IMG/VR virus record: IMGVR_UViG_2534681938_000031
DNA: 10,931 bases
Strand: one strand, 5' to 3'
Source of the DNA: a virus
Taxonomy: Duplodnaviria > Heunggongvirae > Uroviricota > Caudoviricetes
How positions within the stretch are numbered: position 1 is the stretch's first letter; every line of letters begins with the position of its first letter. A program made the position numbers. Shown here in pieces: positions 3,001 through 6,000 of the stretch.

Positions 3001-6000
3001 GACGCAGCCGCCGAAGCCATCAAAACGCTGATGCACGCGCTGATTGATATTTCTGTTATCGCGGACAGGGCACATAAGCACGCCACCAGCGAAACAGAAT
3101 ATGCCGGTGCTTTCGTTCCTCACTCACTGGCTGTCATGCAATTTAGTGCTGATACGGCGCTGAATGAGGCCAAAGCTATCCTGATTGCTGATTGTGAAAA
3201 TGGGGGGGTTATGCGTGATGATCGTTTTAATTCCCTGAAACAGGAATTTTCCGGCGTTCCTGATGATGCGGCTGATGCGCTTTCGTCAATGCCAGAACTT
3301 ATTAGAGCGGCTTTTTTCTTACTTTCCACGAGAGAATATAAATCAACGGGGCTTGATGTACTGAATATCGCCGCCGATTATGCGGAATATGTGGCAGAGG
3401 CGCGTTATAGAAGAAAATTTCCTGAGGATGTAAGCCATGCGTGATATTTACCACCAAACAATAGACCGCGCATTTCTTGCACTTTCTCACAGTGAAAACA
3501 TGATGGAAATATTGCGCATATGGCTTGAAACACTTGGCGACAATGAACGCGACAAACAAAAATCAAGAATTGCCACGGCATTAATAACGCTTCTTGAGCC
3601 TGTAATAATGGAACTGCAAGAAATAGATCTATTGCACGACAGATATAAAGAACAGCACACCGGAGAATAAAAATAATGAAACTTAAATATTCTGGCTTAA
3701 CTGCCAGTGGCAACACTCACCCTAAATTTACGCGCGGTGATATTTACCGCGACCAGTACGGCGGCACGGTAATGATTAAGGGCGTGGAAGAACGGCGCGT
3801 AACCTACCGCCGTGAAGGTTACGAATATGATTGCGTGATGCCTGTTTATCAGTTCCGGCGTGATTTTTCTCTGGTACAGACCGCGCCGCATAACGTGCCC
3901 ACCAGCAACGCCAGGGCACGGGCAAACATCCAGAAGCTGAAAACCATGGTTAACGGATTCAGGGGCAAGAAATGAAAAGCGCACCGAACTTAAAAAAACA
4001 GCCTTACGACAAGATGACCGAAGTCATTATTTTTGCGGGTAGTGATGCCTGGGCACATGCGAAACAGTGGCAGGAACAGGACGGGCGACTGGCTGGCGAT
4101 AATGTGCCTCCCGTTGTGCTGGCTGATGATCAACTGGATGAACTGGCAGAACTGAGAATCATCGACGAGGGGCGCTATTGTGTCCGGCTGTACAAGGCAG
4201 GCCACATCAGGCCATCAAATATTAATGCCATTGCGCACAAGCTGGCGGCGGCGGGTGTAACTGATGCGAATTATTACCCCGAAGGGATGCACAGCCATAT
4301 GCGGGAGAACTGGCGCGAATACCTGGAACGGGTGCGCGGGAAAGAGCCGGCGGAAGAAAAAACCACCAGCGAAAAACCACGCTACCGATGAGCGTTGGAT
4401 CTACCGGATACGACACGCAACTGGATTACGTGGTTAAGGGGATTATTCCGGCGGTATCGCTATGCAGCATATACGGGGCTAGCGGGTCCTATAAATCATT
4501 CCTTGCCGGATCGTGGGCGTGCCATGTTGCCACTGGTCGCCAGTGGGGAGGCCGCAGGGTTGCACATGGTGCGGTTCTCTATGTGGTTGGTGAAGGCGGT
4601 ATAGGTGTTCCGCGTCGTGTAAAAGCCTGGGAGGTTGTGCACGATGAGCAGGTGAAAAATCTGTATCTGGTAAACCGCCCCATCTTTCCGGCTGCCCCGC
4701 TTGATGTTGATGAAATGGTTATCGCTGCCCGTCAGGTGGAGCGGGAAACGGGTAAACCTGTACGCATGATTATTCTGGATACGCTGGCGCGTTGCTTTGG
4801 TGGGAATGATGAAAATGATTCCCGTGATATGGGGGCGTTTATCCGTGGTTGTGACGAACTGAAACGACGCACAGGGGCCACGGTGCTGGTGGTTCACCAT
4901 TCCGGCAAGGATGAGACGAAAGGCGCGCGCGGTTCCAGTGCATTTCGTGCTTCGCTGGATGCTGAATACCGGATACGCAGGGAGGACGCAGGAAGCGAAG
5001 CGCTGGTTATCTCATGCACCAAAATGAAGGACGCGGAGGAACTCAAAGAAGCCGCATATGACTTACGCGTGGTGGAGCTTTTTACCGACGCTGACGGTGA
5101 ATTAATCACGTCGCTGGTGGTGGTGGATGATCCGCGCCCTCCTGTTGAACTGGAGCGCATCGAGGAGGCAGGGAACAAGACGGAAAACCATACCGCGCTA
5201 TGGGGGTGCATCCGTTCACGCACACAGAACGGCGACAAGTGCACGATCCCGCTGTTACGTGATGACATGAAAAAGCTGGGGTATGAAATGAAAAACTTCC
5301 GGCGCTGGCTGTACAAGCTGGAAAAAGATGGGGTTATTCGTATCGATGGGGATGATGTAGCGCCGCTATAAAAGTGAGGAGCAAAAGCGAGGGGGATAGA
5401 AAGAGGGCCAAAATTAGCCCGCTCTCCCTCACTTTTCGACCTGTATACATCCTCAAAAGTGAGGGGTAAAAAAATACTTATGAAACACACACATAGAAAA
5501 ACCGAAAATCCCAACTGCGACGAAGTGAGACGCTTGAAAAAGTGAGGCGAAAAAGTGAGAGGTTGCGAGAAATGACCCAAAAACGCAGAGACAGAACAGA
5601 GCCAAAATATAAAGCGTTAGACATGACTGAGCACACCTTAAAGGTGGCAATCAGAACGATAGACCGCCACACGCGGGAAGGATACGCGAAGGAACATCCC
5701 GACCTGATAAGCGCATTCATGACCACGGCGGCGGCAAACTTTGCCACGCTGACAGAACGGGAGATTGCCGAAGCGGAACAGGTAACAACCATCAACGTTA
5801 AAACCGGAGAGGTGGAATTATGACGGCACAGATAGCCGCTTACGGGCGGCTGGTGGACGACCCGCAGGTAAAACAGACCAGCAAGGGCACACCGATGACG
5901 CTGGCGCGTATGGCGGTATCTTTGCCATGCAGCCAGGCACAGGACGGACAGGCGACGTTATGGTTATCGGTCATCGCATTTGGCAAACAGGCCGGCTTCC

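What the first reader, a model, noticed from the sequence alone, without database searches (positions are those of the whole stretch)
5371..5562. AAAGTGAG iteron cluster immediately 3' of the replicative ATPase: candidate origin
About seven copies of AAAGTGAG(G/A), in both orientations and split by an AT-rich stretch (5468-5520), fill the gap between the RepA-like ATPase gene and the next ORF. An iteron-flanked AT-rich core directly downstream of the initiator/helicase gene is the arrangement known for SaPI-type islands.
Basis: partly seen in the sequence, partly recalled or inferred. Interest (0 to 1): 0.55.

Follow-up and report, generated by a model that had tools for sequence, protein, structure and literature searches.

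The report
Replication origin of an E. coli phage satellite
The repeat cluster is almost certainly the replication origin of a known type of phage-parasitic island (PICI) in E. coli O157:H7, an ordinary feature of such islands, though comparison with about 80 relatives shows that one amino acid of the island's helicase changes in step with one base of the repeats.

Summary
Six exact AAGTGAG copies, seven of AAG[T/C]GAG (six forward, one inverted), occur only in 5371-5560. They fill the gap between the rep stop (5371) and the next ORF (5572) and bracket an A/T-rich, easily melted tract (5465-5520).

The window is an EcCICFT073-type PICI at the ycfD-phoQ site of E. coli O157:H7.
- In 70 of 83 related loci from many Enterobacterales genera, the 250 nt after the rep stop hold 4-10 copies of one 7-mer at conserved offsets. 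Only 16 of 1,772 control windows do.
- The repeat sequence differs by lineage. All copies change together, and the variable base tracks one residue at the start of the recognition helix of a predicted C-terminal winged helix in Rep: N with A, S with C, H or K with G, 76 of 76.
- Sibling islands with a P4-like primase-helicase carry different iterons at the same place. One such rep-ori, EcCICFT073, is experimentally validated.

What differs from SaPI is that the helicase is RecA/RepA-like (AAA_25), not AAA+. The "upstream ORF" 3972-4391 is Rep's N-terminal domain, split off by a 1-nt homopolymer deletion absent from all 5,426 complete E. coli genomes.

This is a new member of a known kind, of modest interest.

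The parts
3972..4391 (+). N-terminal domain of Rep (139-aa ORF), split from the rest of the gene in this window only
   Evidence: In TR01 and all five other E. coli relatives examined, rep is one gene of 465-471 aa. This domain is 57-74% identical to the N-terminus of the pri-rep proteins of sibling islands that use different iterons. It is therefore not the iteron-specificity domain.
4357..4362 (+). A6 homopolymer (A7 in relatives): a 1-nt deletion that frameshifts rep
   Evidence: Shown by alignment with TR01. No complete E. coli genome matches the A6 version at 99% or better, whereas 360 match A7 at 100%. The split form with the 139-aa ORF is seen in GCA_051590825.1.
4388..5371 (+). Rep core (327 aa): RecA-like RepA/DnaB-type helicase domain plus a C-terminal winged helix
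   Evidence: Pfam AAA_25 E=1.6e-43 over aa 10-176. PDB RSF1010 RepA 1g8y E=0.0055. PHROG families of phage primase/helicases match. This core (aa 133-466 of the full protein) is what is conserved in the 80 loci from other genera.
5150..5368 (+). C-terminal winged-helix domain of Rep, the proposed iteron reader
   Evidence: AlphaFold2 gives pLDDT of about 90 for three helices and a two-stranded wing. All top Foldseek PDB hits are winged-helix DNA binders, but they are weak: E 0.04-0.2, probability 0.9 or higher, TM 0.55-0.73.
5294..5296 (+). Codon AAC for Asn442 (full-length numbering), just before the predicted recognition helix FRRWLYKLEK
   Evidence: This residue co-varies with the variable iteron base: N with A 25/25, S with C 7/7, H with G 11/11, K with G 33/33. 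An out-of-sample case in Klebsiella CP018459.1 has S with GTGCGGC.
5371..5379 (+). Iteron L1, AAAGTGAGG, overlapping the last base of the rep stop codon
   Evidence: position conserved in relatives.
5384..5392 (+). Iteron L2, AAAGCGAGG (one mismatch)
   Evidence: position conserved.
5393..5426 (.). Left spacer, diverged in the O157 lineage: the third left iteron of relatives is replaced by a G+C-richer hairpin-like sequence
   Evidence: Alignment A2. One weak terminator-like hairpin on the - strand at 5405-5420, no more than chance expects.
5427..5435 (-). Inverted iteron (CCTCACTTT on the + strand)
   Evidence: It is conserved as the inverted copy at about +57 from the stop in nearly all relatives and switches sequence together with the direct copies.
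5442..5449 (.). TGTATACA palindrome, exactly midway between the inverted iteron pair
   Evidence: The sequence shows it directly. A TGTATA(C/T)A or CATATATA-type core is conserved at this place across genera.
5456..5464 (+). Iteron R0, AAAGTGAGG, right arm of the inverted pair
   Evidence: (inverted repeat I2: 11-nt arms, 100% complementary, 18 nt apart).
5465..5520 (.). A/T-rich, A-skewed central tract: candidate DNA-unwinding element
   Evidence: 33% G+C; AT skew +0.5 to +0.6. The least stable 20-mers of the gap lie at 5465-5489, in the 98th-99th percentile of the window. Relatives have a spacer of similar length.
5522..5530 (+). Iteron R1, GAAGTGAGA
5539..5547 (+). Iteron R2, AAAGTGAGG
5552..5560 (+). 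Iteron R3, AAAGTGAGA; its GAGAGG also serves as a Shine-Dalgarno-like sequence for the next ORF
5562..5570 (+). Degenerate iteron R4, GTTGCGAGA (TAGTGGGG or GAGTGAGG in relatives)
5572..5823 (+). Next ORF (83 aa, phrog_1231, function unknown); not part of the rep-ori module
   Evidence: Annotated in TR01 and matched by PHROG. The same ORF, 90-93% identical at the DNA level, follows pri-rep origins that carry unrelated iterons. Homology to those islands resumes at window 5565-5570.

Best explanation
The cluster is the vegetative replication origin (ori) of a phage-inducible chromosomal island (PICI) integrated between roxA/ycfD and phoQ in E. coli O157:H7. The proposed mechanism has four steps. 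First, after induction the island's Rep protein is made. It consists of an N-terminal domain, a RecA-like RepA/DnaB-type hexameric helicase domain (AAA_25) and a C-terminal winged helix. Second, the winged helix reads the AAGTGAG(G/A) iterons, and residue Asn442 just before the recognition helix contacts the variable A. Third, Rep molecules bound to the left set, to the inverted pair around the TGTATACA dyad and to the right set oligomerise and open the adjacent easily melted tract 5465-5520 and/or the dyad spacer. Fourth, the same protein loads itself as the replicative helicase. Priming and synthesis would be left to host or helper functions, because this Rep has no recognisable primase catalytic domain, with help from the island's own SSB encoded two genes downstream. 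What is shown here: the repeats, their geometry, their conservation at this position, their concerted change, the protein-DNA covariation, and the modular co-inheritance of rep and iterons. What is inferred: binding, melting, self-loading and replication.
For: Non-random cluster: all 6 AAGTGAG copies lie within 188 bp, and 0 of 200 shuffles reach 6.

Identity of the element: it is 100% identical to O157:H7 TR01 between roxA and phoQ, with int, alpA, icd-like, DUF4222, rep, ssb, perC, E- and D-like capsid genes and a Nu1-like gene, all on one strand. It shares the attachment site and backbone of EcCICFT073 and EcCIRM12579.

Conserved architecture: 70 of 83 loci carrying the Rep core have 4-10 copies of one 7-mer within 250 nt of the rep stop, at conserved offsets (+1, +14, +25, inverted at +57, +86, +152, +169, +182). 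Only 16 of 1,772 control windows reach 4 copies.

Concerted change: every copy, including the inverted one, reads GTGAG in the window and in JNE141411 but GTGGG in four other E. coli islands. Two of those Rep cores differ from the window's at only 17-18 of 335 residues.

Specificity covariation: residue 442 against the variable base is N/A 25, S/C 7, H/G 11, K/G 33, with no exceptions. This includes independent lineages (E. coli and Xenorhabdus for N/A) and an out-of-sample Klebsiella element.

Fold: the residue lies just before helix 3 of a confidently modelled winged helix.

Module exchange: there is no homology to EcCICFT073 from 4338 to 5643, although the flanks are 82% and 92% identical. 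The pri-rep siblings carry their own iterons in both orientations at the same place.

Other candidate binders are excluded. An identical DUF4222 protein (WP_000770163.1) accompanies both GTGGG and TCTACC iterons. The downstream 83-aa ORF and Rep's N-domain are likewise shared across iteron types.

Precedent: the EcCICFT073 rep-ori drives plasmid maintenance, and deleting rep or ori abolishes or reduces it (PMC6092414). SaPI Reps use a C-terminal winged helix to bind 6-12 iterons located directly after rep, around an AT-rich centre, and they self-load (PMC9371898).

A 16,971-bp circular record from K. pneumoniae carries the same Rep-ori family. This fits an episomal form but is not proof of one.
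Against: There is no experimental evidence for this island or for this Rep type. The central tract is only moderately AT-rich: 28-33% G+C, and nine other 50-nt windows in the window are as low or lower. The left arm is eroded in the O157 lineage, with two copies (one imperfect) where relatives have three or four. In this window rep is frameshifted, so the element as sequenced may not make full-length Rep. Only one of eight copies is inverted, so the SaPI rule of opposed iterons on both sides of the AT tract is not literally met. The covariation is correlative, the sequences are phylogenetically related, and the number of independent switches is perhaps four to six. The winged-helix assignment rests on an AlphaFold model and on weak Foldseek E-values (0.04-0.2). 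The model of the whole 327-aa protein is poor (pLDDT 63), and its fold search was uninformative.
Confidence: 0.85

Rival explanations
1. It is an origin by descent that is inactive in this strain: a decaying remnant in a domesticated island. The left iteron set is partly replaced and the initiator gene is frameshifted, so the repeats no longer fire replication here.
For: The third left iteron of relatives is replaced by unrelated sequence in 5393-5426, and L2 carries a mismatch. In this window rep is split by a 1-nt deletion. The literature treats the related O157 islands mainly as regulators of LEE expression and as 'cryptic prophages' (PMC3378721, listed; PMC6092414).
Against: The frameshift is absent from all 400 complete genomes that carry this gene, so it is probably a homopolymer assembly error or a private mutation. 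Seven or eight iterons, the dyad and the AT tract are intact and 100% conserved across O157, O55 and O145 strains. Stand-alone Rep cores of about 330-360 aa appear to occur in other genera, although those lengths come from an automatic ORF call and some may be truncations. SaPI origins work with as few as six iterons (PMC9371898).
Confidence: 0.1
2. The repeats are Rep-binding (or other protein-binding) operator sites whose main role is transcriptional: autoregulation of rep, or control of the downstream ssb-perC-capsid genes. On this reading they are not a site of replication initiation.
For: The last iterons overlap the ribosome-binding region of the next ORF. Iteron-binding initiators of plasmids commonly autoregulate (general knowledge). 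The covariation shows binding specificity, not replication.
Against: No sigma-70-like promoter is found in 5200-5700. The array lies downstream of rep, not at its promoter. Two iteron sets, a dyad and a meltable tract form an architecture typical of origins, and the equivalent region of EcCICFT073 was needed for plasmid maintenance. The two roles are not mutually exclusive.
Confidence: 0.04
3. The repeats are incidental: Shine-Dalgarno-like GAGG repeats, a transcription terminator for rep, a small RNA, or chance.
For: The motif contains GAGG. One weak terminator-like hairpin lies on the minus strand. There is a sub-threshold Rfam SprD hit of 19.8 bits against a gathering score of 100.
Against: 0 of 200 shuffles reproduce the count. 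Relatives keep the positions but switch to non-SD-like sequences such as GTGCGGC. The inverted copy switches too. The single-strand fold is not unusual (z = -1.26). No Rfam family reaches threshold.
Confidence: 0.01

Closest known systems
EcCICFT073 pri-rep-ori, the Gram-negative PICI origin of Fillol-Salom et al. 2018 (ISME J, PMC6092414)
   Same: It belongs to the same island family and shares the attachment site (ycfD-phoQ) and the flanking genes (DUF4222 upstream; 83-aa ORF and ssb downstream). The origin lies in the gap directly 3' of rep. Short iterons occur in both orientations, in two sets around a central spacer. The paper states that all the PICIs it identified share this organisation, and its Table S1 lists an O55:H7 island (EcCIRM12579) at this site.
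   Different: The initiator is a 584-aa 'DNA primase family' protein rather than a RepA-like AAA_25 helicase. Only the first ~130 aa are homologous. The iterons are CTGTCTACC/GGTAGA rather than AAGTGAG. The gap is about 290 nt rather than 200 nt. The CFT073 origin has been tested experimentally; this one has not.
SaPI origins and Rep initiators (Ubeda et al.; Qiao et al. 2022, PMC9371898)
   Same: The helicase-initiator has a C-terminal winged helix that reads 5-6-nt iterons. Six to twelve iterons lie immediately downstream of rep, with a central AT-rich region. Self-loading without a separate loader is the proposed mechanism. Specificity differs between islands.
   Different: SaPI Reps are AAA+ (SF3/MCM-like) ATPases, whereas this Rep is RecA-like (AAA_25, RSF1010 RepA/DnaB-like). 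There is no sequence homology between them. Here the one inverted copy pairs with a direct copy around a TGTATACA dyad, and the iterons on the two sides of the AT tract are not opposed. The hosts also differ (Gram-negative here).
Satellite phage P4 alpha protein with ori and crr (recalled from memory, not tested here)
   Same: P4 is a satellite of enterobacterial phages. One polypeptide combines the helicase with a C-terminal winged-helix origin-binding domain, and the iterons are octamers. The pri-rep module of sibling island L010 uses CTGTTCACC, which resembles the P4 type-I iteron as I recall it.
   Different: P4 alpha has primase and SF3-type helicase domains, and P4 needs a second, distant cis element (crr). 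The window's Rep shares only its N-terminal ~130 aa with the P4-like pri-rep proteins.
RSF1010/IncQ RepA helicase (PDB 1G8Y)
   Same: The ATPase fold and family are homologous: Pfam AAA_25 E=1.6e-43, and phmmer to 1g8y E=0.0055 over aa 150-321.
   Different: In IncQ plasmids a separate protein (RepC) reads the iterons and RepA is only the helicase (established knowledge). Here a winged helix is fused to the helicase and no RepC-like gene is present.
Iteron plasmids (Rep_3 family: pPS10 RepA, F RepE, R6K pi)
   Same: Directly repeated initiator-binding sites lie next to an AT-rich unwinding element. The initiator binds through a winged helix. Specificity is co-inherited with the rep gene.
   Different: No Rep_3 domain is present. 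There is no DnaA box or IHF consensus in the gap. The iterons are 8-9 nt at 10-17-nt spacing, not ~19-22 nt. The initiator is itself a helicase.

Membership tests
PICI/SaPI-type replication origin | Lies immediately 3' of the replication-initiator gene | tested here: met
   The first iteron overlaps the rep stop codon (5369-5371), and the array fills the gap up to the next ORF at 5572. The same holds in 70 of 83 related loci.
PICI/SaPI-type replication origin | [quoted passage not shown] | tested here: met
   Four copies lie left of 5465-5520 (5371, 5384, 5427 inverted, 5456) and four lie right of it (5522, 5539, 5552, 5562 degenerate). The tract is 33% G+C against 49% overall, and its 20-mers are in the 98th-99th percentile for instability.
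PICI/SaPI-type replication origin | [quoted passage not shown] | tested here: inconclusive
   Only one copy (5427-5435) is inverted. It pairs with 5456-5464 around the TGTATACA dyad. All right-hand copies point the same way as three of the four left-hand copies. Some relatives (Xenorhabdus) have a second inverted copy at about +135.
PICI/SaPI-type replication origin | The cognate Rep binds the iterons specifically | not testable with these tools
   Indirect support only: residue 442 and the iteron base co-vary in 76 of 76 loci, and rep and iterons are exchanged as one module.
PICI/SaPI-type replication origin | rep plus ori suffices for autonomous replication | not testable with these tools
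   This has been shown only for the sibling EcCICFT073 module (PMC6092414). A circular 17-kb Klebsiella record with this Rep-ori family is suggestive only.
Gram-negative PICI (EcCICFT073-like) | An ~11-kb island with int, alpA, a replication module and packaging/capsid-interference genes, transcribed in one direction, at a PICI-specific attachment site | tested here: met
   The window carries int (1-1230), alpA (1595-1783), rep, ssb, perC, E-like and D-like capsid genes and a Nu1-like gene, all on the + strand. It lies between roxA/ycfD and phoQ, the same site as EcCICFT073 and EcCIRM12579. It is 82-94% identical to the CFT073 island outside the rep-ori module.
SaPI Rep initiator-helicase family | AAA+ (SF3/MCM-like) ATPase domain | tested here: not met
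   The ATPase is Pfam AAA_25 (RecA-like RepA/DnaB type). The PDB sequence search finds only RSF1010 RepA, with weak RecA/Rad51-like fold hits.
SaPI Rep initiator-helicase family | C-terminal winged-helix domain | tested here: met
   AlphaFold2 models the last 78 aa with pLDDT 82.7 (about 90 over the fold) as H-H-H-beta-beta. All top Foldseek hits are winged-helix domains, though with weak E-values of 0.04-0.2.
RepA/DnaB-like (AAA_25) hexameric helicases | RecA-fold ATPase with Walker A and Walker B motifs, matching the family profile above threshold | tested here: met
   AAA_25 scores 149 bits against a cut-off of 27. Walker A (GASGSYKS) and Walker B-like (MIILDT) motifs are visible in the translation. 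Hexamer formation and helicase activity were not tested.
Rep_3-type iteron plasmid replicons | Rep_3 initiator, DnaA boxes and dependence on host DnaB | tested here: not met
   There is no Rep_3 hit. There is no DnaA box or IHF consensus in 5372-5571.

The most novel reading that the evidence does not exclude
This Rep and its origin could define a distinct, widespread class of self-loading initiator-helicases in Enterobacterales phage satellites, both classical PICIs and capsid-forming ones. In this class a RecA/SF4-type (RepA/DnaB-like) motor, rather than the AAA+ motor of SaPI, P4 or viral initiators, is fused to a winged helix. A single residue just before the recognition helix (N, S, H or K) would directly read one iteron base (A, C, G, G). 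That would amount to a simple natural 'code' generating mutually orthogonal replicons on an otherwise identical island backbone.
Probability: 0.5. Interest if true: 0.5.

Novelty: new member of a known kind. Interest (0 to 1): 0.35.

Why it matters
As an origin, it adds little. PICI origins of this layout were described in 2018, and this island family was listed in that paper.

Its value lies in the detail. It pins down the rep-ori module of the O157:H7 ycfD-phoQ island and corrects the gene model, since the two "ORFs" are one Rep. It also shows that the same backbone swaps whole initiator-plus-iteron cassettes.

The perfect one-residue/one-base covariation across about 80 elements is a ready-made, testable hypothesis for how satellites diversify replication specificity. 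That diversification would let several related islands co-reside (up to six matching places per genome) without cross-talk. It could also be used to build orthogonal replicons.

Tried and rejected
- The fold search of the whole 327-aa AlphaFold model (pLDDT 63) returned only generic Rossmann-like and RecA/Rad51-like matches with E > 0.001, so I discarded it as uninformative.
- Pfam scans of the C-terminal 133 aa and the N-terminal 139 aa at E <= 10 found nothing.
- The promoter/terminator scan found no promoter and one chance-level hairpin on the wrong strand.
- The single-strand DNA fold of the gap is not unusual (z = -1.26), so a structured ssDNA or RNA element is not supported.
- Rfam gave nothing at gathering thresholds, and the sub-threshold SprD hit is chance.
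- DnaA-box and IHF consensus searches found nothing in the gap. The two DnaA-box matches near 2852 and 2978 are at chance frequency.
- I considered whether the DUF4222 protein, the downstream 83-aa ORF or Rep's N-terminal domain bind the iterons. I rejected all three because the same or near-identical versions accompany unrelated iterons.
- I considered that the 327-aa 'stand-alone' Rep might be a common natural form, because it is recorded on more than 1,000 contigs. Most of these are draft contigs that break about 90 nt upstream of Met140, at the repeated-backbone junction, so this is largely an assembly artefact.
- Literature searches found no paper describing this RepA-type PICI origin specifically.
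- One search (TGTTCACC with P4) failed on a term-length rule and was not repeated.
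Full report
**1. The observation**

The gap between the stop codon of the AAA_25 ATPase gene (TAA 5369-5371) and the ATG of the next ORF (5572) holds the repeats as described.
- AAAGTGAG is found exactly five times and twice more with one mismatch. All seven copies lie in 5371-5559; six are on the + strand and one is on the - strand at 5428-5435.
- The 7-mer AAGTGAG occurs six times in the 10.9-kb window, all here. Shuffles give 0.86 +/- 0.91, and none of 200 reaches six.
- AAG[TC]GAG has 8 hits in the window, 7 of them here. A degenerate eighth copy of the array (GTTGCGAGA) lies at 5562-5570.
- The inverted copy (5427-5435) and the next direct copy (5456-5464) form a perfect 11-nt inverted repeat 18 nt apart. 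They are exactly symmetric about a TGTATACA palindrome at 5442-5449.
- To the right lies an A-rich tract, 5465-5520. It is 33% G+C against 49% overall, with AT skew of +0.5 to +0.6.
- The first 25 nt of that tract are the least stable duplex of the region, in the 98th-99th percentile of the window. It is one of the ten most AT-rich 50-mers in the window, not the most AT-rich.

**2. What the window is**

The window is 100% identical to a segment of E. coli O157:H7 strain TR01 lying between roxA (ycfD) and phoQ. All of the following are on the + strand:
- a tyrosine integrase (1-1230) and alpA (1595-1783);
- icd-like and small ORFs, then a DUF4222 gene;
- rep, an 83-aa ORF, ssb and perC;
- lambda E-like and D-like capsid genes and a Nu1-like small-terminase homologue.

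This is the organisation of Gram-negative phage-inducible chromosomal islands. EcCICFT073 and EcCIRM12579 (from O55:H7) are listed at this very ycfD-phoQ site in Table S1 of Fillol-Salom et al. 2018. The window is 82-94% identical to the CFT073 island everywhere except 4338-5643.

**3. The rep gene model**

Alignment with TR01 shows one difference: an A-run is A6 in the window (4357-4362) and A7 in TR01.
- With A7 the two ORFs are a single 466-aa 'helicase RepA family' gene, as in all five other E. coli relatives fetched.
- None of the 5,426 complete E. coli genomes matches the A6 version at 99% or better. 360 match A7 at 100%.
- The 327-aa product is recorded on more than 1,000 contigs. That is mostly because draft contigs break about 90 nt upstream of Met140, at the edge of sequence repeated between co-resident islands.
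- A genuine split with the 139-aa ORF is seen in a 5.53-Mb contig of GCA_051590825.1, which is probably the source of the window.

The frameshift is therefore a rare private mutation or a homopolymer assembly error.

**4. Conservation of the array**

In five diverged E. coli islands with the same type of Rep, the gap aligns column for column, and the iterons sit at the same places. A scan of one genome per species found 80 further loci encoding the Rep core (aa ~133-466, 50-72% identity). They come from Xenorhabdus, Pectobacterium, Serratia, Morganella, Pantoea, Kosakonia, Kluyvera, Citrobacter and others.
- In 70 of 83 loci, the 250 nt after the rep stop contain 4-10 non-overlapping copies of a single 7-mer. 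Only 16 of 1,772 control windows from the same loci reach four.
- The offsets from the stop codon are conserved: +1, +14, (+25), an inverted copy at about +57, +86, sometimes a second inverted copy at about +135, then +152, +169, +182 and (+192).
- An alignment of 32 representatives shows the shared plan. It runs: 2-4 direct iterons abutting or overlapping the end of rep; about 30 nt; an inverted iteron; an 18-nt spacer with a TGTATA(C/T)A or CATATATA core; a direct iteron; a 55-60-nt central spacer; and 3-5 direct iterons.
- In the O157 lineage the left arm is partly replaced. Positions 5393-5426 are a G+C-richer hairpin-like sequence where relatives have a third iteron.

**5. The iterons go with Rep, and with one part of Rep**

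The iteron sequence differs between lineages: GTGAGGA, GTGGGGA, GTGCGGC, GTGGGGGA, GTGGGGGC. All copies in an origin, including the inverted one, change together.

Within E. coli, the window and JNE141411 have GTGAG while four other islands have GTGGG. Two of those Rep cores (L003 and L004) differ from the window's at only 17-18 of 335 residues.

Scanning the Rep alignment for columns that partition by iteron type singles out residue 442, in the motif K-x-F-x-R-W-L-x-K-L. Cross-tabulated with the variable base, the result has no exceptions:

| Residue 442 | Variable iteron base | Loci |
|---|---|---|
| N | A | 25/25 |
| S | C | 7/7 |
| H | G | 11/11 |
| K | G | 33/33 |

N/A occurs in both E. 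coli and Xenorhabdus, and H and S occur in closely related 455-aa proteins. An element not used in the analysis fits the rule as well. It is a 16,971-bp circular K. pneumoniae record with int, an alpA-like gene, Rep, an HK97 capsid gene and terminases. It has GTGCGGC iterons, a CTGTATACA dyad and Ser at the corresponding position.

AlphaFold2 models the last ~70 residues confidently (pLDDT about 90) as three helices followed by a beta-hairpin, and residue 442 lies just before helix 3. All top Foldseek PDB matches are winged-helix DNA-binding domains (IclR, ArsR, LexA, Fur, DtxR, DnaD-N, ORC). Their E-values are weak at 0.04-0.2, as expected for so small a domain.

The pairings Asn-adenine and Lys/His-guanine are the commonly favoured side-chain/base contacts (general knowledge). 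The covariation is correlative, and the sequences are related by descent. I estimate four to six independent switches.

**6. Other candidate binders are excluded by module shuffling**

Many E. coli genomes match the query only from window ~5565-5570 rightwards. Those islands have the same DUF4222 gene upstream and the same 83-aa ORF and ssb downstream, but a 582-605-aa 'DNA primase family' pri-rep in between.
- Their gaps hold quite different iterons in both orientations: TCTACC/GGTAGA, CCTCTACC and CTGTTCACC. CFT073 has CTGTCTACC/GGTAGA.
- An identical DUF4222 protein (WP_000770163.1) accompanies both GTGGG and TCTACC origins.
- Rep's first ~130 aa are 57-74% identical to the N-terminus of the pri-rep proteins.

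Only the helicase-plus-winged-helix part of Rep co-segregates with the iterons. The exchangeable cassette runs from about 4338, the linker that also contains the A-run, to about 5565-5643.

**7. The initiator**

The ATPase domain matches Pfam AAA_25 (E=1.6e-43). It is weakly similar to RSF1010 RepA, PDB 1g8y (E=0.0055), and it matches the helicase portions of phage primase-helicases.
- In phage genomes only this part (aa 4-270) has homologues, at 41% identity or less.
- It is therefore a RecA-fold, RepA/DnaB-like motor. It is not the AAA+ (SF3/MCM-like) motor of SaPI Reps (PMC9371898).
- No primase catalytic domain is detectable in the E. coli protein. Xenorhabdus homologues of about 700 aa carry a Toprim-type domain, PF13362.
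- There is no DnaA box or IHF consensus in the gap.

**8. Mechanism proposed**

On induction, Rep binds the iterons through its winged helix. Protomers on the two flanking sets and on the inverted pair oligomerise. The adjacent low-stability tract 5465-5520, and/or the TA-rich dyad spacer, opens. Rep then assembles on the single strands as the replicative helicase, and host primase and polymerase and the island's SSB complete the replisome. This copies the model established for SaPI Reps and for the sibling EcCICFT073 module, whose rep and ori were both needed for plasmid maintenance. Everything beyond sequence architecture, conservation and covariation is inference.

**9. Rivals**

- A decayed, inactive origin is possible, given the eroded left arm and the frameshift in this window. 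Against it, the frameshift is not in any complete genome and the array is otherwise intact.
- A purely regulatory operator is unlikely. No promoter is found, the position is downstream of rep, and the architecture is that of an origin.

**10. Comparison and novelty**

[quoted passage not shown] The island family is in that paper's tables. I could not see its Figure 2a, so I cannot say whether this particular iteron set was drawn. No paper found describes a RepA-type PICI origin.

I file the finding as a new member of a known kind. The less ordinary aspects are:
- a RecA/SF4-type motor in place of an AAA+ one, with the same overall design;
- the dyad-centred inverted pair;
- the clean one-residue/one-base covariation.

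Interest: 0.35.

Noticed in passing
window 4357-4362: An A6 homopolymer (A7 in relatives) frameshifts rep into 139-aa and 327-aa ORFs. The A6 allele is absent from all 5,426 complete E. coli genomes and is seen in GCA_051590825.1. It lies in the linker where the shared N-domain meets the exchangeable helicase module.
   Followed up: yes
window 9179-9254 and 10043-10118: A 76-nt inverted repeat, 91% complementary, flanks the 788-nt segment containing the Nu1-like small-terminase (Rpp-like) gene at 9355-9897. EcCICFT073 has the arms but a different gene between them. This may be a cassette or an invertible segment.
   Followed up: partly
L007 ~2830-2868, L008 ~2860-2898, L091 ~6430-6460, L036-L047 about 100-111 nt after the rep stop: A motif CTGAAA(G/C)CC...CATTACTG(G/A) sits in the central spacer of origins that use different initiators and iterons: the pri-rep type, including the validated EcCICFT073 ori, and the RepA type in Kosakonia, Kluyvera and Enterobacter. 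It is absent from the window's own spacer. It could be a Rep-independent host-factor or priming signal.
   Followed up: partly
L010 2665-2900: The pri-rep type sibling island in E. coli C21 uses CTGTTCACC iterons. From memory, these resemble the type-I iterons of satellite phage P4 ori/crr, which suggests that the pri-rep modules are P4 alpha-like.
   Followed up: no
L092 (CP018459.1, 1-16971): A 16,971-bp circular 'plasmid' of K. pneumoniae is really a capsid-forming PICI-like element: int, an alpA-like gene, Rep, HK97 capsid, head-tail adaptor and terS/terL. It carries the same Rep-ori family with GTGCGGC iterons. It is either an excised episome or an assembly product.
   Followed up: partly
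L095 and L096 (draft contigs), corresponding to window ~4298: Hundreds of draft assemblies break about 90 nt upstream of Rep Met140, at the junction between backbone sequence repeated among co-resident islands and the unique rep-ori module. This generates more than 1,000 spurious 327-aa 'AAA family ATPase' records.
   Followed up: yes
window 5393-5426: In the O157/O55 lineage the third left iteron and the spacer are replaced by a G+C-richer sequence, AGAGGGCcaaaattaGCCCgCTCT, that can form a hairpin. One terminator-like call lies on the minus strand at 5405-5420. Its significance is unknown.
   Followed up: partly
L052-L074, last codons of rep: In lineages with GTGGGGGA iterons, the first iteron lies inside the coding end of rep (...GTGGGGGATTAA encodes the C-terminal V-G-D). 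The origin therefore overlaps the gene it depends on.
   Followed up: no
window 2852-2860 (-) and 2978-2986 (+): A perfect DnaA-box consensus TTATCCACA and a near relative TTATGCACA lie upstream of the small ORFs. The count is at chance level (62 of 200 shuffles).
   Followed up: no
window 1841-2785: A 314-aa ORF with an Icd-like N-terminus is annotated in TR01 as an incomplete pseudogene followed by a separate short icd-like gene. The region looks rearranged relative to EcCICFT073; homology is patchy across 1889-2985.
   Followed up: no
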